Shown here: in pieces, positions 12,169 to 21,567 of the stretch
Layout: each line of letters opens with the position of its first letter
Position numbering within the stretch: position 1 is the stretch's first letter
Virus record (IMG/VR): IMGVR_UViG_3300037424_002485
Span: 1-64,000 of that record
Strand: one strand, 5' to 3'
Length of the DNA: 64,000 nt
From: a virus
Taxonomy: Duplodnaviria; Caudoviricetes
Made by a program: the position numbers and the translations under genes
Notes under the pieces: generated by a model
What the model was told of the DNA's origin: nothing
What the model saw: the letters and a program-made list of their open reading frames with translations, nothing else
The model's database searches: none

Positions 12169-13047
12169 ATGATAACCAAACCGATGCTGGCCGCTTCCAT
12201 TGAAAATCTCGACGACATACAATATCCGGTGCTCTGCACGCCAAAACTCGATGGAGTTCGCTGTCTGAAAATTAACGGCCGGGCCGTGACGCGAGCCTTC
12301 AAACCGGTACCGAACGCATTCGTACGCGAATTCATCGAAGCCAATTACCCGGACGGCGTGGACGGTGAACTAATGACGCCGAGCCCTGTTGGCACAGCAT
12401 TTGACGCGGGACCGCTCATGCATCATACCGGCGAGCCGGATTTCGTATTCAATTGTTTTGACTACGTGCCGCGGGGCGACCTGCTGCAACCCTATAAATC
12501 TCGCATAACCGTAGTCGAGAGCCTGAATTTGCCTAAATTAATGCCTGTTGTACCCGGTTCTTATATTCGCCGCGAAGCTGATCTACTCGCCTACGAACAC
12601 CGGTGTCTTGACGCCGGCTACGAGGGTGTTATGCTCAGGTCGCCAGACGGTCCGTATAAATGCGGGCGGTCAACGGTGCGTGAAGGCTATCTGCTCAAGC
12701 TCAAACGGTTTGCCGACAGCGAAGCCGTCATCCTCGGCCTCTATGAACAGATGCACAATGCGAATGCCGCCCAGCAGGATGCGTTTGGCCGAACAAAGCG
12801 GTCGTCGCATAAAGATAATAAAATCGGCAAAGCGACGCTCGGCGCCTTCTTCGTGCGCGACGTGAAGACCGGCATCGAGTTCAACATAGGTACGGGCATG
12901 AATGATGAATTCCGCGCGTGGGCATGGCAGCATCCCCGCGAATGCATAGATAAAATCTGCAAGTATAAATCGCAATCAGTCGGCGTAAAAGACGCACCCC
13001 GGTTTCCCGTGTGGCTGGGATTTCGCGACGCCGCTGATATGTCGTAA
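12169..13047 (+). CDS. lig: Minimal ATP-dependent DNA ligase
   Basis: Motif I PKLDGVR, DGEL, GYEGVMLR, LLKLK, OB fold GTG...PRFP. Confidence 0.93.
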   Translation: MITKPMLAASIENLDDIQYPVLCTPKLDGVRCLKINGRAVTRAFKPVPNAFVREFIEANYPDGVDGELMTPSPVGTAFDAGPLMHHTGEPDFVFNCFDYVPRGDLLQPYKSRITVVESLNLPKLMPVVPGSYIRREADLLAYEHRCLDAGYEGVMLRSPDGPYKCGRSTVREGYLLKLKRFADSEAVILGLYEQMHNANAAQQDAFGRTKRSSHKDNKIGKATLGAFFVRDVKTGIEFNIGTGMNDEFRAWAWQHPRECIDKICKYKSQSVGVKDAPRFPVWLGFRDAADMS

Positions 13048-13224
13048 GTGGAGGCCGTATGATACGCGAAATTAAACGCATCCAAGAAAAGTATATCCAA
13101 CTCCAAAAACAAAATATCGAATATGTGAGCATATGCGACATAACAAACGACCTCTACCAACTCATACGAGAAATACGAATAAAACGATTACCGAAGTCAG
13201 AACGATGATATTCGAGGAGGCCGT

Positions 13225-13410
13225 ATGAACCCGCTCATAGTTATGAGTCTTGACGATAAACTATTTGCGCTCGACTATTGCTGTCGCTGCCTGCGCTCGG
13301 CACGCCTGACCGGCGACGGCGAAGCCGTGCTGTTTTGGCTCGACCGGTGGCTTGAATTTATGCTGGAGCCCGTTGAAACGCGAAAACCGGCCGATAACAG
13401 CAGCGGCTAA
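13225..13410 (+). CDS. Hypothetical protein
   Basis: 61 aa with GAGGAGG RBS. Confidence 0.55.
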   Translation: MNPLIVMSLDDKLFALDYCCRCLRSARLTGDGEAVLFWLDRWLEFMLEPVETRKPADNSSG

Positions 13411-13473
13411 CGTCTTAATAAATAAGCGAACCTAAAAATAATAAAAAAGTTCATTAAGAACGTTAAGCCGGGT

Positions 13474-13503
13474 ATAGCGAAAGCCGCCGCGGTCGAGTAT
13501 AAT
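13474..13503 (+). promoter_or_regulatory. Phage promoter motif copy B
   Basis: ATAGCGAAAGCC-N9-GAGTATAAT upstream of the replication-initiator operon. Confidence 0.78.
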
Positions 13504-13601
13504 ATAAACGTACGAAGCAACGAGATTGGTACACGCAGAGGGAATGAGGGCGGTGCCCTAATCACCGCCCGATTTCTAAATCCGATTAGGGAGGGTTGAA
13601 A

Positions 13602-13940
13602 TTGAGAACGCCGTCTTCAAAGAATTTAATTGCCGCCGTCGAAACCATCGCAAAAAAACCACCTGTAATTCCACCACCGCCTAAGCCAGAAGTAAAACCT
13701 CAGCAAACAACCGTACCGCCTCTGCGCGATTCTGAAATCGTATATATCATAAAACTCATCCCCGAATACCGAGAAAATAATCGGTCCCGGCTTATCCTCG
13801 AATTAGTCTCAAACAACGATCAAAAAACCATGCCAAAAATTAGATTAAAACCCGGCATGATGATCAAAATAACAAATATGAGTCAGACGGTAGAAGATAT
13901 GCGAAAAGAAAATGAGGAGCGCCGCAATGCCAAGAAATGA
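13602..13940 (+). CDS. Hypothetical Pro-rich protein
   Basis: TTG start 6 nt after GGGAGGG; coupled to the initiator. Confidence 0.55.
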   Translation: MRTPSSKNLIAAVETIAKKPPVIPPPPKPEVKPQQTTVPPLRDSEIVYIIKLIPEYRENNRSRLILELVSNNDQKTMPKIRLKPGMMIKITNMSQTVEDMRKENEERRNAKK

Positions 13941-14838
13941 CAACAGCTGGTTATTACCAGATATAGAAAAAATACAATTGTACGCAAATAAACTCCAATA
14001 CATCCAAATACCCATAGAAATTATCTGCGACGAACGTATTCCGCATATCGCTAAACTAATATTTGGTATTGTGCTCGCGACAGGTCGCACAGAAGAAGGC
14101 TCATTTTGGGGTAATGCGAAACTGGAGCATTTGCTTGATGTATCTCAGCCTGTAATCAGTAAAGCATACACCACGCTCGAAGCGCTCGGCCTTATAAAAA
14201 TGGAATTTGATGGACGGCGTAGAGTAGCAAGAAGCTTATATGGAATAGGTCTTGTTAATTCAAAAGAACGAACTCAAGAATATTTATCCCTTTTAGGCAG
14301 AGTAAAAGATTCTTTTAGGCAGCCTAAAAGAAAACAATTAGCTAATATAAAACATATAATAAAAAAAGATAATAAGAACCTATATACTACTAACAGCGCG
14401 GAAAACCCTCGCGCTGAATCTGACAAAAAAGAATCATCTGTTTCCAGAACGGCTAAACTCAGGGCAGCTAAACAGGCAAAACTTCCAGACCCCGCGATCA
14501 TGGCCGTCGTCAGCTATTTTAAAACTCGCTGCAAAGAAACGCTCGGCATAGACCTTGACGTTGCATCGAGGGATTGGAAAACAGTCAAGGAAAAATTATC
14601 AACTAAGTCAGAAACCGAAATAAAGAAAATTATCGATGACTGCCTGACAAATACAAATACGCAATGGCAACGCGATCATCCAACGCTTAGTATTTTCTTA
14701 TCCGTGAATACAATCAATCAGCTAAAAGTGAATAAACCGACGGGTACAAATTATACGCCCAAATCAGGATACGTGCATTCAGGAACAGAGTACCCACGGG
14801 GAAAACAATATTCAAACGTAGACGGGAGTGTAAAGTGA
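13927..14838 (+). CDS. Replication initiator-like protein (N-terminal wHTH, C-terminal DnaD/O-like domain)
   Basis: AKLIFG...FWGNAKLEHLLDVSQPVISKAYTTLEALGLIK wHTH; directly upstream of a DnaC-like ATPase. Confidence 0.7.
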   Translation: MPRNDNSWLLPDIEKIQLYANKLQYIQIPIEIICDERIPHIAKLIFGIVLATGRTEEGSFWGNAKLEHLLDVSQPVISKAYTTLEALGLIKMEFDGRRRVARSLYGIGLVNSKERTQEYLSLLGRVKDSFRQPKRKQLANIKHIIKKDNKNLYTTNSAENPRAESDKKESSVSRTAKLRAAKQAKLPDPAIMAVVSYFKTRCKETLGIDLDVASRDWKTVKEKLSTKSETEIKKIIDDCLTNTNTQWQRDHPTLSIFLSVNTINQLKVNKPTGTNYTPKSGYVHSGTEYPRGKQYSNVDGSVK

Positions 14839-15638
14839 TAACTAAATTAGATGCCGTCCAGTACAATAGAAAATTACGCGAAATAGTAGGCAGTAAAGAG
14901 CTGTGGGAGCTGTGCTCATCATTATTCGCGAACGAATTATCGTCACGAGAAATGCTTGATCATTTACTCTATCACATGCTGCTTACGGGCGTGCCGAGCA
15001 GATTTCAATCCGCACACCTCGGCGCATTTCCATCAGAGCAGCAAAGAGATGTGTTCGCTGCTCTGTCACAAAACTCAGGGCTTTTCATCCACGGCAAGCG
15101 AGGTCGCGGAAAAACCATGCTCGCCTGCGCGGTGCTGCGCGAATTAAAATCACAAGTTGCACACGATTTGTTAAAACAATGCTGGCAGAATGCTGCTCAG
15201 GATGGCTACGTCGAACCGCCGACGCGCGCGCAGGTAGACCGTTACGTGGGCACGTGTTTTAGCGAAGCGTTGATGCGCGGGCCGTCAATGCTATTCAAGA
15301 ATACCGCCGAGCTGATGGATGATATTAAGCGATGCTTCGATGCTGGCGCCGAGACAAACAAGCAAGACCTCGTGGATAAATATGCACAGGTAGACGTGCT
15401 CGTGCTTGACGACCTCGGCATGGAGAAGCCGTCCGCGTTTGTCCGCGAGACATTCGACATGATAATCAACCGGCGGTGGAGTGAGGAGAAGATGTGCGTA
15501 TTTACGAGCAACTTCGACCTGGTGAAGCTGGAGACGCATTACGAGGACGAGGGCCGGATAAGCTCGCGCGTCGCCGGCATGTGCGCGGTCGTCGAAATGG
15601 TCGGCAGCGATCAGCGGTTGCGGAACCAAGAGGGTTGA
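14835..15638 (+). CDS. DnaC/IstB-like AAA+ helicase loader
   Basis: GKRGRGKT Walker A, VLVLDDLG Walker B, TSN, RISSR. Confidence 0.88.
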   Translation: MITKLDAVQYNRKLREIVGSKELWELCSSLFANELSSREMLDHLLYHMLLTGVPSRFQSAHLGAFPSEQQRDVFAALSQNSGLFIHGKRGRGKTMLACAVLRELKSQVAHDLLKQCWQNAAQDGYVEPPTRAQVDRYVGTCFSEALMRGPSMLFKNTAELMDDIKRCFDAGAETNKQDLVDKYAQVDVLVLDDLGMEKPSAFVRETFDMIINRRWSEEKMCVFTSNFDLVKLETHYEDEGRISSRVAGMCAVVEMVGSDQRLRNQEG

Positions 15639-15695
15639 AATAAACGCGGTGCTCAGGCGCGGCGTAGCCGTCGCGCTGGAGCACCCTGGTTATAT
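15639..15695 (+). mobile_element. attC-like site 0
   Basis: AATAAAC...GGTGCTC/GAGCACC inner inverted repeat with bulges...GTTATAT; 57 bp. Confidence 0.7.
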
Positions 15696-15729
15696 GTGAT
15701 TTTAATTCTATTCATTGGAGGAAAAGACC

Positions 15730-16032
15730 ATGGGAGTAAACAGAATAGTTCGCAGAAACCTCAAGCGTTCAGGTGACGCAAGCCACAAGAGAATCATCAC
15801 CGGCAAGCACGATGAAAACGGATATTCCGTTGACATGCAGAGGTCGCACATGAAATGCACGGACGGGACCGATTGGGTCTGGGTGTTCCATCCGACGTGG
15901 GTTGATAACCGTTCGCGGGACAAATACGAAATTCTCGCAGGCCATTGTTCGGAAATGGCAAAGCGTGTTGTTCGCATCAGTGGCCGAAAGGTCGTCGGCA
16001 TCCCGTCGGGTGCGGTTGGCATTCACATATAA
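15730..16032 (+). CDS. Cassette 1 hypothetical protein
   Basis: Stop TAA lies inside the R'' box CATATAAC; RBS GGAGG after the preceding GTT. Confidence 0.7.
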   Translation: MGVNRIVRRNLKRSGDASHKRIITGKHDENGYSVDMQRSHMKCTDGTDWVWVFHPTWVDNRSRDKYEILAGHCSEMAKRVVRISGRKVVGIPSGAVGIHI

Positions 16033-16084
16033 CGTTGTTGTGAGGGGCGCGGTTTCAGCGACCCTCTCGACCGTTTTGTTATCT
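16027..16084 (+). mobile_element. attC-like site 1
   Basis: TCACATATAAC (16023-16033) is the exact reverse complement of GTTATATGTGA (15689-15699); inner GAGGG/CCCTC stem; ends GTTATCT. Confidence 0.85.
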
Positions 16085-16092
16085 GAGGTTCT

Positions 16093-16698
16093 ATGTTTGA
16101 AAAAGTCGAAATAGGCCACGCAACCCTTTATCACGGTGACGCTTTGGAGATCCTTCCGAAACTGTATCCGGTTGACGCTGTGATTACCGATCCGCCGTAT
16201 CCGAACCGGGCCGGGCATTTCGATGCGGACATAGAAACGGCAATTCAGTTCATGCAGCAATATAAAATTGTTCAGCACTGGATTGTTTTCTGGACCGAAA
16301 TGGAGCACCCGCCCGTTCCGTTGCCGTTGACTGCCGTGCATATCTGGCACAGGAGCAACACGAACAGGCCAGACAACTACGAACCGTTTTATGAATTTCA
16401 CGCGAACGGGATAAAGAGAGCAAGCCGGGTATATTCTTATCCGGTCGTCTTTGAAGGATTGACGGGATGCACAGAGGCTACCGGACACCCGGCGCAGAAG
16501 AATGAAAAGCTGATGCGCGACATAGTACAGAAAACACGCGGTGAAGTGCTTGACCCTTTCATGGGATCGGGGAGCACGGGCGCGGCCTGTGTGAAGCTGG
16601 AACGGAAATTTATCGGAATTGAGAAAGACCGCAAGTGGTTCGATATTTCATGTGAACGGATAGAACAGGCACAAAGGCAGATGTGCCTTTACAGATAA
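16093..16698 (+). CDS. Cassette 2: DNA amino-methyltransferase (N4-C/N6-A, beta class)
   Basis: ITDPPY, GHPAQK, VLDPFMGSGSTG, FIGIEKD. Confidence 0.9.
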   Translation: MFEKVEIGHATLYHGDALEILPKLYPVDAVITDPPYPNRAGHFDADIETAIQFMQQYKIVQHWIVFWTEMEHPPVPLPLTAVHIWHRSNTNRPDNYEPFYEFHANGIKRASRVYSYPVVFEGLTGCTEATGHPAQKNEKLMRDIVQKTRGEVLDPFMGSGSTGAACVKLERKFIGIEKDRKWFDISCERIEQAQRQMCLYR

Positions 16699-16782
16699 CG
16701 TCGCAGGTAACAGGCCGCCGCGCTCAGGCGGCGAATAGAGGCACGGTGATTCACGGCGGTCCTGTTGACCGCAGGGTTCGAC
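16693..16782 (+). mobile_element. attC-like site 2
   Basis: CAGATAAC (16692-16699) complements GTTATCTG (16078-16085); AACAGGCCGCCG/CGGCGG-T-CCTGTT stem with one extrahelical base; ends GTTCGAC. Confidence 0.85.
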
Positions 16783-16798
16783 AACAATTGGTGAGGCC

Positions 16799-17695
16799 AT
16801 GAACAGAACAGAGCACCTACTGACATGCCTAGCGGAAGAATGTGCTGAAGTACAACAGGCTGTAGCCAAAGCGCTGCGGTTTGGCCTTGACGATGGCTAC
16901 CCAGGAACAGACCGGACAAACGCCGCCGACATCGCGCAGGAACTGAAAGACGTGGTTGCTGTGGCTGAGATGCTAGAGGAATGCGGAGCGCTGCCGAACA
17001 CGCACACGATGCGCGACATTGAGGCGAAGAAGGCCAAAGTTGCGCACTACATGGAATACGCAGAGCAGCGCGGGACATTGGTGTCGAACGCCCGGATGAC
17101 GGGCGCGGGTCTTGCGGCCCGTCGATACGATGGTTGTGTGGGAGGTAGCATGGAATTAGTAACGTTGCCAGAAATGGAAAAAGGCGCATGGAAAATTGAG
17201 CGATTCACGGTTGATCGGACGGACTTCCATTCAGCACTTAGAGGTCGCGGGGTGCCAGTAGGAGAGACGTTCACTAAGGTTACAAGAAACGGATACCTTG
17301 TGATGTCTGATACTCCCGCTGAACAGAGCGACCATTGGGAAGCTGTAAGACGCGCAAAAGGCTCTTGCCTTTTGAACGGTCTTGGAATTGGCATGGTGTT
17401 GAAAAATATTCTCTTAAAACCGTCAGTAACGGACATTACGGTTGTCGAAATAGCGCAAGATTTGATTGACATTGTAGCGCCGCACTATGCTGACCCACGA
17501 GTGACATTTGTTTGTGCCGACGCATTGAAGTATCAACCGCCGAAAGGTAAGCGGTATCAGATGGTATGGCATGACATTTGGGACAATATCTGCGGTGACA
17601 ACCTGAAAGACATGGAGAAGTTGCACCGGAAATATGGACGGCGCACGGATTGGCAAAATTCGTGGTGTAAATACGAGTGCCAGCGCGGAAGGTAG
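16799..17695 (+). CDS. In-frame fusion of cassette 3 (MazG-like NTP pyrophosphohydrolase) and cassette 4 (spermidine-synthase-like SAM methyltransferase, own ATG at 17150)
   Basis: LAEECAEVQQAVAK...ELKDV MazG-like helices; GLGIG...VVEIAQD...ADA...WHDIW Rossmann MTase; internal GGAGG RBS. Confidence 0.8.
   Translation: MNRTEHLLTCLAEECAEVQQAVAKALRFGLDDGYPGTDRTNAADIAQELKDVVAVAEMLEECGALPNTHTMRDIEAKKAKVAHYMEYAEQRGTLVSNARMTGAGLAARRYDGCVGGSMELVTLPEMEKGAWKIERFTVDRTDFHSALRGRGVPVGETFTKVTRNGYLVMSDTPAEQSDHWEAVRRAKGSCLLNGLGIGMVLKNILLKPSVTDITVVEIAQDLIDIVAPHYADPRVTFVCADALKYQPPKGKRYQMVWHDIWDNICGDNLKDMEKLHRKYGRRTDWQNSWCKYECQRGR
17083..17139 (+). mobile_element. attC-like site 3 (read through in frame)
   Basis: TGTCGAAC (17082-17089) complements GTTCGACA (16776-16783); GACGGGC/GCCCGTC stem; ends GTTGTGT. 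Confidence 0.85.
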
Positions 17696-17741
17696 TTACA
17701 CATAATGGGCGAGTTGAGCCACCCGAGGAAGGGGCAGGATT

Positions 17742-17909
17742 ATGAGCGTGGACTGCATATCAGATTATTGTAAATATCACAAGGCCGGAATGTGCACCAT
17801 CGAAATGAGCCACCCATGCCCAGCTCGTAATCCTGTTCCTGACGAAGCGGTTCATCCGCTCGGACGTTTGGTTATGATTTCATTGGAGGACGCGCAATGG
17901 CTGAGATAA
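17742..17909 (+). CDS. Small Cys-rich protein, 55 aa
   Basis: Manual translation: MSVDCISDYCKYHKAGMC...; crosses a degenerate attC-like hairpin ending GTTATGA (17871). Confidence 0.4.
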   Translation: MSVDCISDYCKYHKAGMCTIEMSHPCPARNPVPDEAVHPLGRLVMISLEDAQWLR

Positions 17910-18208
17910 AACGAGCAGACATTAAACCGTGTGCAAAATGCGGCAAGGGTGTGATGCACACAGGGATTCCTCTTTTTTGGAGAGTAACCATTCAACGATA
18001 CGGACTCGATGCTGGCGCCGTGCAGCGTGCCGCAGGGCTGGAAATGATGCTCGGAAGCGTGACATTGGCAAACGTCATGGGGCCGAATGAAACACTGGCA
18101 AAGCCAGTAATGGATACCACAGTATTAATTCTTTGCGAAGACTGCGCTATGGAACCGTATCCGGTTGCAGCGTTTGCAGAGTTGGTGAAATCATCGGAGA
18201 CAATATGA
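17897..18208 (+). CDS. Zn-finger hypothetical protein
   Basis: CAKCG...CEDC; GGAGG RBS. Confidence 0.7.
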   Translation: MAEIKRADIKPCAKCGKGVMHTGIPLFWRVTIQRYGLDAGAVQRAAGLEMMLGSVTLANVMGPNETLAKPVMDTTVLILCEDCAMEPYPVAAFAELVKSSETI

Positions 18209-18465
18209 AAACAATCTGGAAGTTCCCTATCGAAATAACAACTCATCAAAAAATTCAAATGCCCGTATGCGCTGATATATTACACGCAGACCTCGACCCA
18301 GAAGGGACGCCATGCGTTTGGGCACTTGTACAGTTCGACTCTCCGAAAGCGGTAAAAAGTTGGCGTGATATTTTCATCTACGGTACGGGCAATCCGGTAT
18401 CGAAATGTGAAAAGTATATCGGTACATTTAAGCAAGGCCCGCTTGTGCGGCATGTTTTTTCGTAG
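18205..18465 (+). CDS. Conserved phage hypothetical protein
   Basis: MKTIWKFPI...QMP..A.ILH...CVWALV...YGTG...YIGTF pattern, common in phages. Confidence 0.7.
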   Translation: MKTIWKFPIEITTHQKIQMPVCADILHADLDPEGTPCVWALVQFDSPKAVKSWRDIFIYGTGNPVSKCEKYIGTFKQGPLVRHVFS

Positions 18466-18509
18466 CGGTTTGTTGATCGACTGCTATCAGCTAGTGAAGG
18501 AGAAGGATT

Positions 18510-18695
18510 ATGAGCGTAACCCGGATACTATGTGAGGACTGCGGATTACCCCTTGTTTATTGTAAATGCGTTTTGGCACAAACAATGCCGGCTCATAAGA
18601 CTTCTCCCCACGAATCGGGCGGCGTATCTATTTTATGCAGAAATTGCGGAGAGGTATTAAACGATCCAGAAGCGCGTGCAAATCACGAATGCTAA
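18510..18695 (+). CDS. Small double-CxxC protein
   Basis: CEDCG...CKC...CRNCG...HEC. Confidence 0.6.
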   Translation: MSVTRILCEDCGLPLVYCKCVLAQTMPAHKTSPHESGGVSILCRNCGEVLNDPEARANHEC

Positions 18696-18747
18696 AAGTC
18701 GCCCGCACAGCTTCGCGGGCGATCAACACTTAGTTGAGGCGTTAGGG
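18690..18747 (+). mobile_element. Degenerate attC-like site
   Basis: CGCCCGC/GCGGGCG hairpin; right end TTAGTTGAGGC-GTTAGGG; left box GCTAAAA lacks AAC. Confidence 0.5.
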
Positions 18748-18754
18748 GAAAATT

Positions 18755-18901
18755 ATGGAAAAAGAATATCGCATACTTGTACTAAAAATGCTTTTAGCGA
18801 TACTGCTAAAACTTGGGAATATGAATGCGCAGGGATGGTCAAAAAGAGAAGCCTCTTTATTTAATGAGGTAGATAAGTTCGTGCGTAAAATGAGCAAATA
18901 A
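18755..18901 (+). CDS. Small cassette-like protein, 48 aa
   Basis: Manual translation: MEKEYRILVLKMLL...; stop inside AAATAAC. Confidence 0.5.
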   Translation: MEKEYRILVLKMLLAILLKLGNMNAQGWSKREASLFNEVDKFVRKMSK

Positions 18902-18944
18902 CGCTTAATTGACCGCCCTTGTGCAGTATAGCGCCTGGTTAGAA
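18896..18944 (+). mobile_element. Degenerate short attC-like site
   Basis: AAATAAC...CCTG-GTTAGAA; weak internal symmetry. Confidence 0.45.
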
Positions 18945-18951
18945 AGGATGT

Positions 18952-19161
18952 ATGAAATATATCTACCATTATCATGCTACTTATCAAAAAGTACCAGGAG
19001 AGATTGAGCACATCGACGGTATTATTACTGCTGAAAATCCAATAGATTCTATTGCGCGTTATCGGGAAACAAAAAAGAATCTCGAAAAAACCATCGATGT
19101 TGACGGTATAGATAGCGAAAAAATTATTGTTGAATCTCTGACACTTTTGCATACTTCTTAA
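18952..19161 (+). CDS. Hypothetical protein (cassette-like)
   Basis: 69 aa; starts after GTTAGAA, stop inside TTCTTAAC. Confidence 0.6.
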   Translation: MKYIYHYHATYQKVPGEIEHIDGIITAENPIDSIARYRETKKNLEKTIDVDGIDSEKIIVESLTLLHTS

Positions 19162-19224
19162 CAGGACATAATAATAACCGCAGAAACTATCAGGCAATGC
19201 GAAGCGCCTGCGTTCGGAGTGATT

Positions 19225-19440
19225 ATGTTAACAAAAGAGCAAATTATACGAGGTTTGATAAATCCGAGTTCCGGCGATTACGTTGATCTCAACACAAAGG
19301 AAAAGGTTTGCGTCTTGTGGGTAGGAGAAGAACCGCATGAATTAGGCAGGTATTCTCTTTGTTTACCGGAACCTATACAGAGACATGCGAGCAGAAATAT
19401 TTGGGCGCTGGTTGAAAAGGAAATAAATGCGTCAGCGTAA
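19225..19440 (+). CDS. Hypothetical protein
   Basis: 71 aa, overlaps the helicase start. Confidence 0.5.
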   Translation: MLTKEQIIRGLINPSSGDYVDLNTKEKVCVLWVGEEPHELGRYSLCLPEPIQRHASRNIWALVEKEINASA

Positions 19441-20986
19441 AATAGACAATAGCGTAGAAAAATCCATAGCGACGGGCGCCATAGTCAGCACGGAATATCT
19501 GAAAGCCGTGCAGGCAATCTATCACCCCGACCTCGTGGCCGTACCCTTCGTCAAAACCGTGCTCGGCTGGTGTCTGGATTATTACCGCCAGTACGAACGC
19601 GCGCCCGAACGTTATATCGCCGATATATTCGCGGCCAACCGGCGTAACGGCCTCGCCGACGACCAGGCCGAATTGATAGCCGACTTCCTCGCAGGCCTCA
19701 GCGACGAATTCGAGCACAGCGAAGCCGGTAAGTTCAACGTGCAGTACTGCCTGGACGCCAGCGAGAAGCACTTCGAGGCTCGCAATCAGGAGCTGTTGAT
19801 AGCCGATATACGTGCGCTACACGCTAAGTCCGCGTATGCTGAGGCCGAGCTGCTTATAGCCGGCTACAAGCGCGTGCAACTTCCGGCGGGTGCAGGTATC
19901 GAGCCGTTTACCGATGCCGATGCTATCCGCAGAGCGTTTGACCCTGACAGCCGACAGGAATTATTCCGGCTGCCCGGTGCGCTCGGCGAACTCGTCGGTG
20001 CCGTCGAGCGCGAAGACTTCATCGGCATACTAGCGCCAGAAAAACGCGGAAAGTCGTGGAGACTACTTGACCTCGCCGTCCGCGGCCTGCGAGCCGGTTG
20101 CAACGTCGCCTATTTTGACGCCGGCGATATGAGCCAGGATCAAGTCGTGCGCCGCCTGCACGCGCGCAACACGCAGCGGTCACCGAAATACGGCGGCGCG
20201 ATGCTCACGCCCGTACTCGATTGCCGGCATTCGCAGGAGGATACGTGCCGCAGGCCGCAGCGTGTCAGCCGGCGCGGTGTCTGCGAAGACGGCAGAGATA
20301 AAACCGGAGCGCTGATTCGCGTGAAGATGGCGTTTGCCGACGTCAGTGGATACCAGCCGTGCTCGGCGTGCTGCCGTGACAACCCCGCCGACTTCCAGGG
20401 AGCCGTATGGTACGCAATGGTTGATAGCGAGCAACTCACCTGGCAGCACGCCGTCGAACTCGGCCAGCGGACGGCGGCGCGCAGCCGCAAGCGGTTTAAA
20501 CTCAGCTGTCACGCGAATAGTACGCTCACCGTCGCCGGAATGGAAGCTGTACTCGACCGCTGGCGCGACGAGGACGGCTTCGTTGCCGATCTCGTCCTCG
20601 CCGACTACTTCGACATCTTCGCCGCTGAGAATCCGAAGACCGTTGACAAGCGCCACCAGATTAACGAAACCTGGCAGGCGGGCAGGCGTTTCACTCAGCA
20701 GCGGCACGCCGCGCTGATTACCGTCACGCAAGCCGACGCCAACAGCTATGACCGGCGCAGCCTAAAGCTGAGCAACTTCAGCGAGGACAAGCGCAAGTTC
20801 GCACATACGACGAAATTTTGGGTACTCAATCAGACCGCTGAGGAGAAGCGCGATATGATTATTCGCATGGCTACGCTGCTCACCCGCGAGGACGAATTCG
20901 ACGTTGACCGCGAAGTCGTGATTGCCCAGGATTTGCGCCGCGGCCAGCCATATGTATTCTCGTATTTTGCGCACAAGGGCTTATGA
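19427..20986 (+). CDS. Replicative DNA helicase (DnaB/T4 gp41-like)
   Basis: LAPEKRGKS Walker A, YFDAGDM, LADYFD, LITVTQA, FSEDKRK. Confidence 0.82.
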   Translation: MRQRKIDNSVEKSIATGAIVSTEYLKAVQAIYHPDLVAVPFVKTVLGWCLDYYRQYERAPERYIADIFAANRRNGLADDQAELIADFLAGLSDEFEHSEAGKFNVQYCLDASEKHFEARNQELLIADIRALHAKSAYAEAELLIAGYKRVQLPAGAGIEPFTDADAIRRAFDPDSRQELFRLPGALGELVGAVEREDFIGILAPEKRGKSWRLLDLAVRGLRAGCNVAYFDAGDMSQDQVVRRLHARNTQRSPKYGGAMLTPVLDCRHSQEDTCRRPQRVSRRGVCEDGRDKTGALIRVKMAFADVSGYQPCSACCRDNPADFQGAVWYAMVDSEQLTWQHAVELGQRTAARSRKRFKLSCHANSTLTVAGMEAVLDRWRDEDGFVADLVLADYFDIFAAENPKTVDKRHQINETWQAGRRFTQQRHAALITVTQADANSYDRRSLKLSNFSEDKRKFAHTTKFWVLNQTAEEKRDMIIRMATLLTREDEFDVDREVVIAQDLRRGQPYVFSYFAHKGL

Positions 20987-21567
20987 GAGAGTTGTCATTA
21001 TTCACGGGAGCAGGAGGAGGACTACTTGGTACGAAATTACTCGGATGGACAGCCGTCGGTTACGTCGAATGGGACAACTACTGCCAAAAAGTCATCGCGC
21101 AGAGGATCAAAGACGGCTGTCTCGACGCCGCGCCCATCTTCACCGATATCCGCGCATTCATCAGTGACGGGTACGCCGCAAGCTATACGGGTATGGTTGA
21201 TGTCGTCAGCGCAGGATTCCCATGCCAGCCGTTCAGCGTTGCCGGGCGGCAGCGAGGAGCGGACGACGACCGAAACATGTGGCCGGCAACGGCGGCAGTC
21301 ATTCGCATCGTACGACCGCGATTCGTGTTGCTGGAGAATGTCCCAGGGCTTCTTTCTCACCGGTACTTTGGGACTGTACTCGGGGACTTGGCCGCGCTCG
21401 GGTATGATTGCCGCTGGCGTTGCCTATCGGCTGCTGAATGCGGGGCACCGCACAAGCGCGACCGGTTGTGGATTATCGGAGTCGGCCAGGCCGACTCCTC
21501 GTGCGGGAAATCCGGGAAGCCGTCCGAACGGGAAGGGCGGGAAAATCTTAAGCGAAGAAGTACGTAA
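20983..21567 (+). CDS. C5 cytosine DNA methyltransferase, N-terminal part (motifs I-VIII)
   Basis: LSLFTGAGG, GFPCQPFS, LLENV, HKRDRLW; stops before motifs IX-X. Confidence 0.9.
   Translation: MRELSLFTGAGGGLLGTKLLGWTAVGYVEWDNYCQKVIAQRIKDGCLDAAPIFTDIRAFISDGYAASYTGMVDVVSAGFPCQPFSVAGRQRGADDDRNMWPATAAVIRIVRPRFVLLENVPGLLSHRYFGTVLGDLAALGYDCRWRCLSAAECGAPHKRDRLWIIGVGQADSSCGKSGKPSEREGRENLKRRST

What the first reader, a model, noticed from the sequence alone, without database searches (positions are those of the whole stretch)
15639..17740. Integron-type attC cassette array inside a phage genome, with no integrase in the window
Seen in sequence: between the dnaC-like and dnaB-like genes, single ORFs are separated by 57-90 bp imperfect palindromes that start ...AAC and end GTT.... 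Each cassette's leading GTT box is the exact reverse complement of the box after its own ORF: GTTATATGTGA(15689)/TCACATATAAC(16023), 11 bp; GTTATCTG(16078)/CAGATAAC(16692), 8 bp; GTTCGACA(16776)/TGTCGAAC(17082), 8 bp. The stops of cassettes 1 and 2 fall in the TAAC box, an RBS follows each GTT, and the stems carry single extrahelical bases. Established: this R'/R'' complementarity is the footprint of IntI-mediated insertion of circular cassettes. Inference: the phage acquires and shuffles genes (DNA MTase, MazG-like, SAM MTase) using a host or distant IntI, i.e. a phage-borne CALIN driven by its own upstream promoter.
Basis: partly seen in the sequence, partly recalled or inferred. Interest (0 to 1): 0.9.

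Follow-up and report, generated by a model that had tools for sequence, protein, structure and literature searches.

The report
Backwards integron-type gene cassettes in phage
A complete 88-kb phage with no recombinase of its own carries three or four swappable single-gene cassettes joined by integron-type (attC) hairpin sites, and every gene lies on the opposite strand to the one bacterial integron cassettes normally use.

Summary
Four AAC...GTT imperfect palindromes (15643-15691, 16031-16080, 16697-16778, 17087-17135) separate single ORFs. The GTT box in front of each ORF is the exact reverse complement of the AAC box behind it (11, 8 and 8 bp).

I built a covariance model from 17 canonical attC sites. 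Over 64 kb and both strands, its four best hits are exactly these elements. Only one is significant on its own (30.9 bits, E 1.6e-5).

All four hits are on the minus strand. The extrahelical G sits 8 nt before GTT on the coding strand, which is therefore the integron "bottom" strand. The cut falls at AA|C, so the TAA stops of ORF1 and ORF2 are the last three bases of their cassettes.

The whole genome has no tyrosine recombinase, serine recombinase or Y1 transposase.

Relatives differ by cassettes. A contig about 94% identical lacks the whole array. A more distant one has a near-identical hairpin next to different genes.

Phage attC clusters without an integrase, some carrying DNA methyltransferases, were published in 2023. 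This is therefore a new variant of a known kind. Earlier notes of this scan report the same inverted layout in other phages.

The parts
14835..15638 (+). DnaC-like helicase loader, the backbone gene left of the array
   Evidence: Pfam IstB_IS21 1.2e-9. Homologs at 47-94% identity anchor the comparison with relatives.
15639..15699 (-). E1, an attC-like site (AAC 15643-15645, GTT 15689-15691, GTT box to 15699). Its top strand is the minus strand.
   Evidence: Model R1 gives 14.9 bits on the minus strand, third best hit in the window. By my hand reading of the minus strand printed, the L box GCT-C-CAG / CTG-AGC pairs 6 of 6, with a 6-nt spacer; the script row for E1 was invalid. Best energy density in the genome. 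Fold z-score -4.8 on the plus strand.
15645..16032 (+). Cassette 1 under bottom-strand cleavage: C + E1 hairpin + GTTATATGTGA + RBS + ORF1 (15730-16032, 100 aa, no family hit) ending in TAA
   Evidence: The 11-bp box pair 15689/16023. GGAGG lies 8 nt before ATG 15730. The minus-strand ORF 16022-15708 has no RBS and no family hit.
16023..16085 (-). E2, the most canonical attC site (AAC 16031-16033, GTT 16078-16080)
   Evidence: R1 gives 30.9 bits, E 1.6e-5, on the minus strand. Minus-strand layout: AGATAAC-AAAAC-GGT-C-GAG ... CTC-ACA-ACAAC-GTTATAT.
16033..16698 (+). Cassette 2: E2 hairpin + GTTATCTG + RBS + N6/N4 DNA methyltransferase (16093-16698) ending in TAA
   Evidence: Pfam N6_N4_Mtase 1.1e-18. 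phrog_67 2e-37. Box pair 16078/16692.
16692..16783 (-). E3, an attC-like site with a long variable stem (AAC 16697-16699, GTT 16776-16778)
   Evidence: R1 gives 12.0 bits on the minus strand. L box GGT-C-AAC / GTT-ACC pairs 6 of 6, with spacers of 5 and 6 nt. On the plus strand T and G are bulged on the 3' arm, and the G lies 8 nt before GTT.
16699..17088 (+). Cassette 3: E3 hairpin + GTTCGACA + RBS + MazG-like NTP pyrophosphohydrolase. It ends ...TCGAA|C with no stop codon.
   Evidence: phrog_4856 7e-22 over residues 1-93. Box pair 16776/17082. The frame stays open.
17082..17145 (-). E4, an attC-like site lying inside the fused reading frame (AAC 17087-17089, GTT 17133-17135)
   Evidence: R1 gives 15.6 bits on the minus strand, second best hit. 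Its inner sequence is 95% identical to L018a and 93% to L131_3, from other metagenomes.
17150..17695 (+). ORF4, a SAM-dependent methyltransferase, probably cassette 4. Its right border is not defined.
   Evidence: phrog_15480 8e-34. It has its own GGGAGG RBS. The expected closing box for GTTGTGTGGG is only approximated at 17695-17708 (ACACATAAT).
16799..17695 (+). 298-aa read-through ORF that fuses the MazG-like and methyltransferase parts across E4
   Evidence: Translation has no stop, and ATG 17150 is in frame.
18896..18944 (-). Decayed attC-like element between small ORFs
   Evidence: R1 gives 10.0 bits on the minus strand. An exact 18-nt core (18907-18924) is shared with site 5 of the L131 array, E 4e-5.

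Best explanation
The stretch 15.64-17.7 kb is an array of three, probably four, integron-type gene cassettes with no recombinase beside it (a CALIN). It sits in the replication module of a complete, virulent-type 88-kb phage with direct terminal repeats. The four hairpins are attC-type sites. Their canonical top strand is the phage minus strand, so the strand that folds and is cut (the bottom strand, carrying the extrahelical G 8 nt before GTT) is the phage coding strand. A tyrosine recombinase of the integron type would cut AA|C at the left end of each hairpin. Each mobile unit is then hairpin + GTT box + RBS + ORF, and where the box reads TAAC the last three bases are the gene's own stop codon. 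Cassette 3 ends GAA|C, has no stop, and is read through into the next gene. The phage encodes no recombinase, so movement must be catalysed in trans. The most likely enzyme is the host's IntI; a recombinase from a co-resident phage is the alternative. Shown: the site anatomy, the chain complementarity, the strand polarity, the absence of a recombinase, and cassette gain or loss among relatives. Inferred: the identity of the enzyme, the cut position, and that the cargo (two methyltransferases and a MazG-like enzyme) serves counter-defence.
For: Boxes and chain complementarity were read directly. The four elements are energy outliers among 1791 AAC...GTT pairs. Model R1, built from 17 canonical attC sites, finds all 16 sites of a Vibrio phage integron at 24-50 bits, with the wrong strand at 12 bits or less. 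It gives no hit at E<=1 in about 0.53 Mb of unrelated contigs. In the window its four best hits are E2, E4, E1 and E3, all on the minus strand. The canonical geometry AAC+5+3+C+3 ... 3+3+5/6+GTT fits the minus strand of E2-E4 and of two of the three relatives' sites tested there; it fits E1 by hand reading. It matches real attC sites read from plasmids. Nivina 2016 places the extrahelical bases on the L'' arm and the cut in AAC of the bottom strand. The genome has no IntI, PF00589, resolvase or Y1 transposase hit. In L024 (about 94% nt identity) window 15622-17894 is replaced by 307 bp. L018 (54% DnaC identity) has an E4-like site, another MazG-like gene, a 29-bit site and a C5 methyltransferase. 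L131 has 7 chained sites and L132 has 3 of the same types, again with ORFs antisense and TAA stops in TAAC. In the likely source metagenome, other contigs carry E2-like and E4-like hairpins with unlike flanks. Qi 2023 showed that IntI1 recombines attC sites from virulent phages.
Against: Only E2 is individually significant with my model. E1, E3 and E4 score 12-16 bits, below the 20-bit cut-off used by Qi et al. IntegronFinder's own model was not run. E1 has a 6-nt spacer and E2 a mismatch instead of a clean bulge. No IntI-bearing host is known. One narrow pattern scan of 185,579 species genomes found no bacterial array with these site types. The right border of cassette 4 is not clean. The break point with L024 on the left (15621) lies 24 nt from the predicted cut. 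The sequencing run laid may be the source of the window, so it is not independent.
Confidence: 0.7

Rival explanations
1. The anatomy is the same, but the enzyme is not a bacterial IntI. A phage-borne, non-IntI tyrosine recombinase, carried by some members of this phage community, moves the cassettes, and this phage is a recombinase-less member served in trans.
For: In the complete 90-kb viral contig G002, a 388-aa tyrosine recombinase with an inserted zinc ribbon lies about 200-500 bp from an array of the same attC types (one site 30.9 bits). It is divergent from the attC top strand, as intI is in integrons. It is not IntI by NCBIfam or BLASTP. A 49%-identical homolog in L136 is followed by an 85-aa ORF bracketed by two weak hits. 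Earlier notes of this scan claim a Xer-like recombinase for similar phage arrays; these are leads only.
Against: It is one adjacency only. The enzyme could equally be an ordinary lysogeny integrase. L138, another homolog, has no sites nearby. The sites fit the model trained on IntI substrates, and IntI1 is known to accept phage attC sites.
Confidence: 0.2
2. One reading: the plus strand is the top strand, each ORF is followed by its own attC, and the cut is G|TT on the right of each hairpin.
For: Stops lie in TAAC and an RBS follows GTT, which looks like the usual ORF-then-attC layout. Chain complementarity fits either polarity.
Against: No plus-strand hit of R1 reaches E<=10, whereas all four elements hit on the minus strand. 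The bulged G lies on the 3' arm of the plus strand at the canonical bottom-strand distance. The 11 sites scored in the relatives L018, L020, L024, L131 and L132 show the same polarity relative to their genes.
Confidence: 0.05
3. The array is an immobile relic: a piece of a bacterial cassette array picked up once by illegitimate recombination and now merely inherited.
For: The phage has no recombinase. Eroded sites at 18896-18944 and a fuzzy right border show decay.
Against: The cargo genes match phage protein families and are co-oriented with and coupled to the phage operon. A relative about 94% identical lacks the whole array but has a different site elsewhere. The same hairpins occur next to different genes in several metagenomes.
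Confidence: 0.04
4. The hairpins are transcription terminators or RNA-level regulators, and the box matches are chance.
For: attC sites can act as weak terminators (cited). The hairpins are intergenic.
Against: None has a T tract or is called by the terminator scan on the plus strand. The 18 extra complementary bases link different hairpins across genes. The hits to the covariance model and the conservation of the sites next to unrelated genes are not explained.
Confidence: 0.01

Closest known systems
[quoted passage not shown] 2023, PMC9892861)
   Same: A phage without IntI carries two to four attC sites that bound single-ORF cassettes. DNA methyltransferases are among the cargo. In TJE1 I saw the same chain complementarity (GTTGGAT/ATCCAAC, GTTATAC/GTATAAC, GTTATGC/GCATAAC).
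   Different: In TJE1 the ORFs and the attC top strand are on the same strand. Here, and in the relatives L018, L131 and L132, every ORF is on the bottom strand. Sites here are GC-rich and score lower. Function with IntI1 was shown for those phages and not for this one.
Sedentary chromosomal integron arrays (for example the Vibrio VCR arrays, read here in V. anguillarum phage Va_90-11-286_p16)
   Same: Families of near-identical attC inner sequences are attached to unrelated genes, and the outer 3-4 nt of the R boxes differ per cassette. There is also chain complementarity.
   Different: There is no adjacent intI or attI. The array is short. The genes are inverted. The site families are shared between different viral contigs, not held within one chromosome.
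Cassette insertion at non-canonical genomic attG sites (Loot et al., bioRxiv 10.1101/2022.09.11.507474)
   Same: It explains how cassettes can land outside an integron platform at a GTT, in either orientation, and later lose their hairpin by slippage. This fits a site after dnaC here and a site after the ORF 17897 homolog in L024.
   Different: That work was done in E. coli chromosomes with IntI1-3. Nothing here shows which target was used, and the left edge carries a full hairpin (E1), not a bare GTT.

Membership tests
Integron attC recombination site | Invariant AAC ... GTT triplets inside inverse-core and core boxes (RYYYAAC / GTTRRRY) | tested here: met
   All four elements have the triplets. 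The extended consensus is only partly kept (AGATAAC, GTCGAAC, ACACAAC on the minus strand). Real sites show a similar spread.
Integron attC recombination site | L''/L' box with an extrahelical base on the L'' arm at a fixed distance: top strand AAC+5+3+C; bottom strand G+8 nt+GTT | tested here: met
   On the minus strand E3 pairs 6 of 6, and E2 and E4 pair 5 of 6, with the C at the canonical place. E1 pairs 6 of 6 with a 6-nt spacer by my hand reading; its script row was invalid. On the plus strand the feature is not met. Controls: 17 canonical sites behave the same way on their top strand.
Integron attC recombination site | Match to an attC covariance model | tested here: inconclusive
   With my own model R1, E2 scores 30.9 bits (E 1.6e-5). 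E4, E1 and E3 score 15.6, 14.9 and 12.0 bits (E 0.19-1.7). They are still the four best hits in 128 kb searched, all on one strand and within 1.5 kb. IntegronFinder's model was not available. Rfam holds no attC model.
Integron gene cassette array | The box at the start of each cassette complements the box at its end (the footprint of a circular intermediate) | tested here: met
   11, 8 and 8 bp for three successive cassettes. The same holds in L131, and approximately (6 of 7) in L018.
Integron gene cassette array | Cassette ORF on the attC top strand, so that it can be expressed from Pc (typical, not strictly defining) | tested here: not met
   The methyltransferase, the MazG-like gene and the second methyltransferase are on the plus strand, and the attC top strand is minus.
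CALIN | At least two attC sites within 4 kb on one strand, with no integron integrase nearby | tested here: met
   There are four sites within 1.5 kb on the minus strand. The 88-kb genome has no TIGR02249 or PF00589 hit. Caveat: only one site is individually significant.
Complete integron | intI gene and attI next to the array | tested here: not met
   The genome contains no tyrosine recombinase at all.
Integron attC recombination site | Recombined by IntI as a folded bottom strand | not testable with these tools
   This needs an attC x attI conjugation assay.

The most novel reading that the evidence does not exclude
Phages keep their own pool of mirror-image integron cassettes. The gene sits on the strand that folds and is cut, the hairpin sits in front of the gene, and the stop codon TAA is the last three bases before the cleavage point. 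Cassettes then slot into a phage operon in any order while staying translatable. A small set of attC types is shared by unrelated phages from different environments. Movement is catalysed in trans, and because the recombinogenic strand is the non-template strand, transcription of the operon could itself expose it.
Probability: 0.3. Interest if true: 0.8.

Novelty: new variant of a known kind. Interest (0 to 1): 0.58.

Why it matters
Integrons are treated as bacterial devices, and phage-borne attC clusters were reported only in 2023, as rare carry-overs. Here the cassettes hold phage-type genes that are probably counter-defence genes. They differ between near-identical phages, use site types shared with other viral contigs, and are built the opposite way round from bacterial cassettes. 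If that layout is general, phages have a cassette economy of their own for accessory genes. Standard pipelines that assume the gene lies upstream of its attC would then assign cassette contents wrongly in phage genomes.

Tried and rejected
- **Rfam**: no hit. Rfam also misses validated TJE1 attC sites, so this negative means nothing.
- **blastn of 14.8-19.5 kb against INPHARED phages**: no match.
- **DnaC as a single query in viral contigs**: nothing found.
- **DnaB relatives L001-L005**: too distant, with no sites.
- **Contexts of homologs of the N6 methyltransferase** (L012-L017): ordinary phage operons with no attC-like sites. This gene is not a common integron cassette.
- **Exact E1 and E4 core patterns** in viral and metagenome collections: no match.
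- **Relatives L104-L106**: no hairpin after dnaC.
- **80 distant DnaC loci**: no hit at E<=1.
- **MAFFT alignment A3 of the phage sites**: structurally misaligned, so not used.
- **My script's row for E1**: invalid because of a coordinate slip. I read E1 by hand instead.
- **Pattern hits in 21 Streptococcus genomes**: one conserved locus with no model hit, so unrelated.
- **Elusimicrobia MAG hit**: a single weak site with no array.
- **Read laying**: the cassette interiors had little or no contig cover, and two long contigs stop inside E1 and E4. Holes in contig cover prove nothing, so I do not count this as evidence of heterogeneity.
- **ORF1 on the minus strand** (16022-15708): considered and rejected, because it has no RBS and no family hit.
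- **Recombinase homologs L136 and L138**: inconclusive.
Full report
**What is there**

The window is the first 64 kb of a complete 88,021-bp IMG/VR virus record with direct terminal repeats. A DnaC-like loader lies at 14835-15638 (IstB_IS21) and a DnaB-like helicase at 19427-20986. Between them lie four imperfect palindromes, each closed by AAC on the left and GTT on the right:

| Element | AAC...GTT span |
|---|---|
| E1 | 15643-15691 |
| E2 | 16031-16080 |
| E3 | 16697-16778 |
| E4 | 17087-17135 |

They separate four ORFs:
- **ORF1** (15730-16032): 100 aa, no family hit.
- **ORF2** (16093-16698): an N6/N4 DNA methyltransferase (Pfam 1e-18, phrog_67 2e-37).
- **ORF3** (from 16799): a MazG-like NTP pyrophosphohydrolase (phrog_4856 7e-22).
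- **ORF4** (17150-17695): a SAM-dependent methyltransferase (phrog_15480 8e-34).

The box after each GTT is the exact reverse complement of the box before the next AAC, over 11, 8 and 8 bp. The two boxes of a single hairpin match by only 0-2 bases beyond the triplets. The extra 18 matched bases at fixed places have a chance of about 4^-18. Among all 1791 AAC...GTT pairs in the genome, the four elements rank 1, 2, 3 and 7 by folding energy per base.

**Are they attC sites?**

Rfam gave nothing. It also gives nothing on the experimentally validated attC sites of Tetrasphaera phage TJE1, so it holds no attC model.

I therefore built a model, R1, from 17 canonical top strands:
- eight class 1 or class 2 cassette sites read from plasmid loci;
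- three TJE1 sites;
- three sites printed in the supplement of Qi et al. 2023;
- three sites from the integron of a Vibrio anguillarum phage.

The structure used for R1 is supported on the seed alignment: 87% of cells paired, against 17-41% when the partner is slid.

As a control, R1 finds all 16 sites of the Vibrio phage integron at 24-50 bits, with the opposite strand at 12 bits or less. It gives no hit at E<=1 in 0.53 Mb of unrelated contigs.

In the window (both strands, filters off) its four best hits are exactly the four elements:

| Element | Bits | E-value |
|---|---|---|
| E2 | 30.9 | 1.6e-5 |
| E4 | 15.6 | 0.19 |
| E1 | 14.9 | 0.29 |
| E3 | 12.0 | 1.7 |

Two weaker hits follow, at 17700-17877 and 18896-18944. 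The last 24 kb of the genome adds one isolated AT-rich 33-nt hit at 12.9 bits (E 0.39) and nothing else above 9 bits. Only E2 is individually significant. The case for the other three rests on rank, clustering, shared strand and anatomy.

**Polarity**

All of the window hits in this region are on the minus strand.

Real attC sites read here have the form R''-AAC, a 5-nt spacer, three paired bases, an extrahelical C, three paired bases, then the loop, six paired bases, a 5-6-nt spacer and GTT-R'. On the bottom strand the extrahelical G therefore lies 8 nt before GTT.

The minus strand of E2, E3 and E4, and of the relatives' sites, fits this geometry. So does E1, with a 6-nt spacer, by my hand reading of the minus strand. 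The plus strand does not fit. On the plus strand, E3 reads G-ACC-GCAGG-GTT and E4 reads G-AT-ACGATG-GTT.

Nivina et al. 2016 place the extrahelical bases on the L'' arm and the IntI cut in the AAC of the bottom strand. The phage coding strand is therefore the bottom strand, and the cut is AA|C at the left end of each hairpin. A cassette is hairpin + GTT box + RBS + ORF.

Two consequences follow:
- The TAA stops of ORF1 and ORF2 are the last three bases of their cassettes (TAA|C).
- Cassette 3 ends GAA|C and has no stop. Its frame runs through E4 into the in-frame ATG of ORF4, giving one 298-aa ORF.

**Mobility**

The genome has no hit to the IntI model, PF00589, resolvase or Y1 transposase, while the control genomes do. 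Relatives found through DnaC homologs show the following:
- **L024** is about 94% identical in DNA on both sides. Where the window has 15622-17894, it has 307 bp with one unrelated ORF. It carries its own attC-like site after the homolog of ORF 17897-18208.
- **L018** (54% DnaC identity) has, directly after dnaC, a site whose inner sequence is 95-96% identical to E4. A different MazG-like gene follows (34% identity), then a textbook site (29.0 bits), then a C5 methyltransferase.
- **L020** has a site at its contig end, while L104-L106 have none.

A pattern shared by E2 and L018b then found two more viral contigs:
- **L131** has seven chained sites, one 93% identical in its inner sequence to E4. 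Another shares an exact 18-nt core with window 18907-18924.
- **L132** lies in a complete 90-kb contig and has three sites.

In L131 the ORFs that fit between the sites are again antisense to the attC top strand, and several stop in TAAC. In L132 the ORFs that fit the intervals are likewise antisense.

In the sediment run that probably gave rise to this record, other contigs carry E2-like and E4-like hairpins with unlike flanks. That run is not independent of the window.

**Which enzyme?**

This is inferred, not shown. Qi et al. found that IntI1 recombines five of six attC sites from virulent phages. The sites here fit a model trained on IntI substrates, so a host IntI is my first choice.

Against this, in the 90-kb contig a 388-aa tyrosine recombinase with an inserted zinc ribbon lies a few hundred bases from the array. 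It is not IntI by NCBIfam or BLASTP. One homolog is followed by a small ORF bracketed by two weak hits, and another has nothing nearby. I rate a phage-borne enzyme at about 0.2.

**Comparison and novelty**

The closest published case is the set of 17 phage CALINs of Qi et al. 2023 (PMC9892861), some of which carry DNA methyltransferases. In TJE1 I confirmed the same chain complementarity, but there the ORFs lie on the attC top strand. Sharing of attC types between unrelated genes, with variable outer R-box bases, resembles sedentary chromosomal integrons.

The inverted gene polarity, the stop codon placed at the cut, and site families shared across viral contigs are not in the papers I read.

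Earlier notes of this scan report the same inverted polarity in several other phages. I reached the polarity result before reading them, and they are unchecked AI notes.

I class the finding as a new variant of a known kind.

Noticed in passing
window 16799-17695: The MazG-like gene has no stop codon. It reads through hairpin E4 into the in-frame start of the SAM methyltransferase, giving a 298-aa fusion ORF. The second gene keeps its own RBS.
   Followed up: partly
window 18896-18944, 19162-19216 and 17700-17877: These look like eroded attC-like elements among the small ORFs up to 19.4 kb. The first shares an exact 18-nt core with a site of the L131 array, but its L'' arm no longer pairs. The whole run of small ORFs may be old cassettes.
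   Followed up: partly
L133:1408-2574 (minus strand), viral contig IMGVR_UViG_3300037484_000296: A 388-aa tyrosine recombinase with a zinc ribbon inserted in the catalytic domain sits next to an attC array of the same site types. It is not IntI by sequence.
   Followed up: partly
L024:1178-1237: A relative with about 94% DNA identity lacks the window's array. It has a different attC-like site and a different gene directly after the homolog of ORF 17897-18208.
   Followed up: yes
window 15643-15683 and 17087-17136, in run X1: Short contigs made only of the inner parts of E1 and E4 have a mean word depth of 40 and 22, against about 13 for the phage's long contigs. The two long contigs end inside E1 and E4. 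The run may be the source sample.
   Followed up: no
L109-L130: The E2/L018b signature pattern matches one conserved locus in 21 mitis-group Streptococcus genomes. The one tested (L111) gave no attC model hit, so this is probably coincidence.
   Followed up: partly
window 13000-21000: GC content swings from 0.37 to 0.64 over a few kb across the replication module, which fits a mosaic origin of its parts.
   Followed up: no
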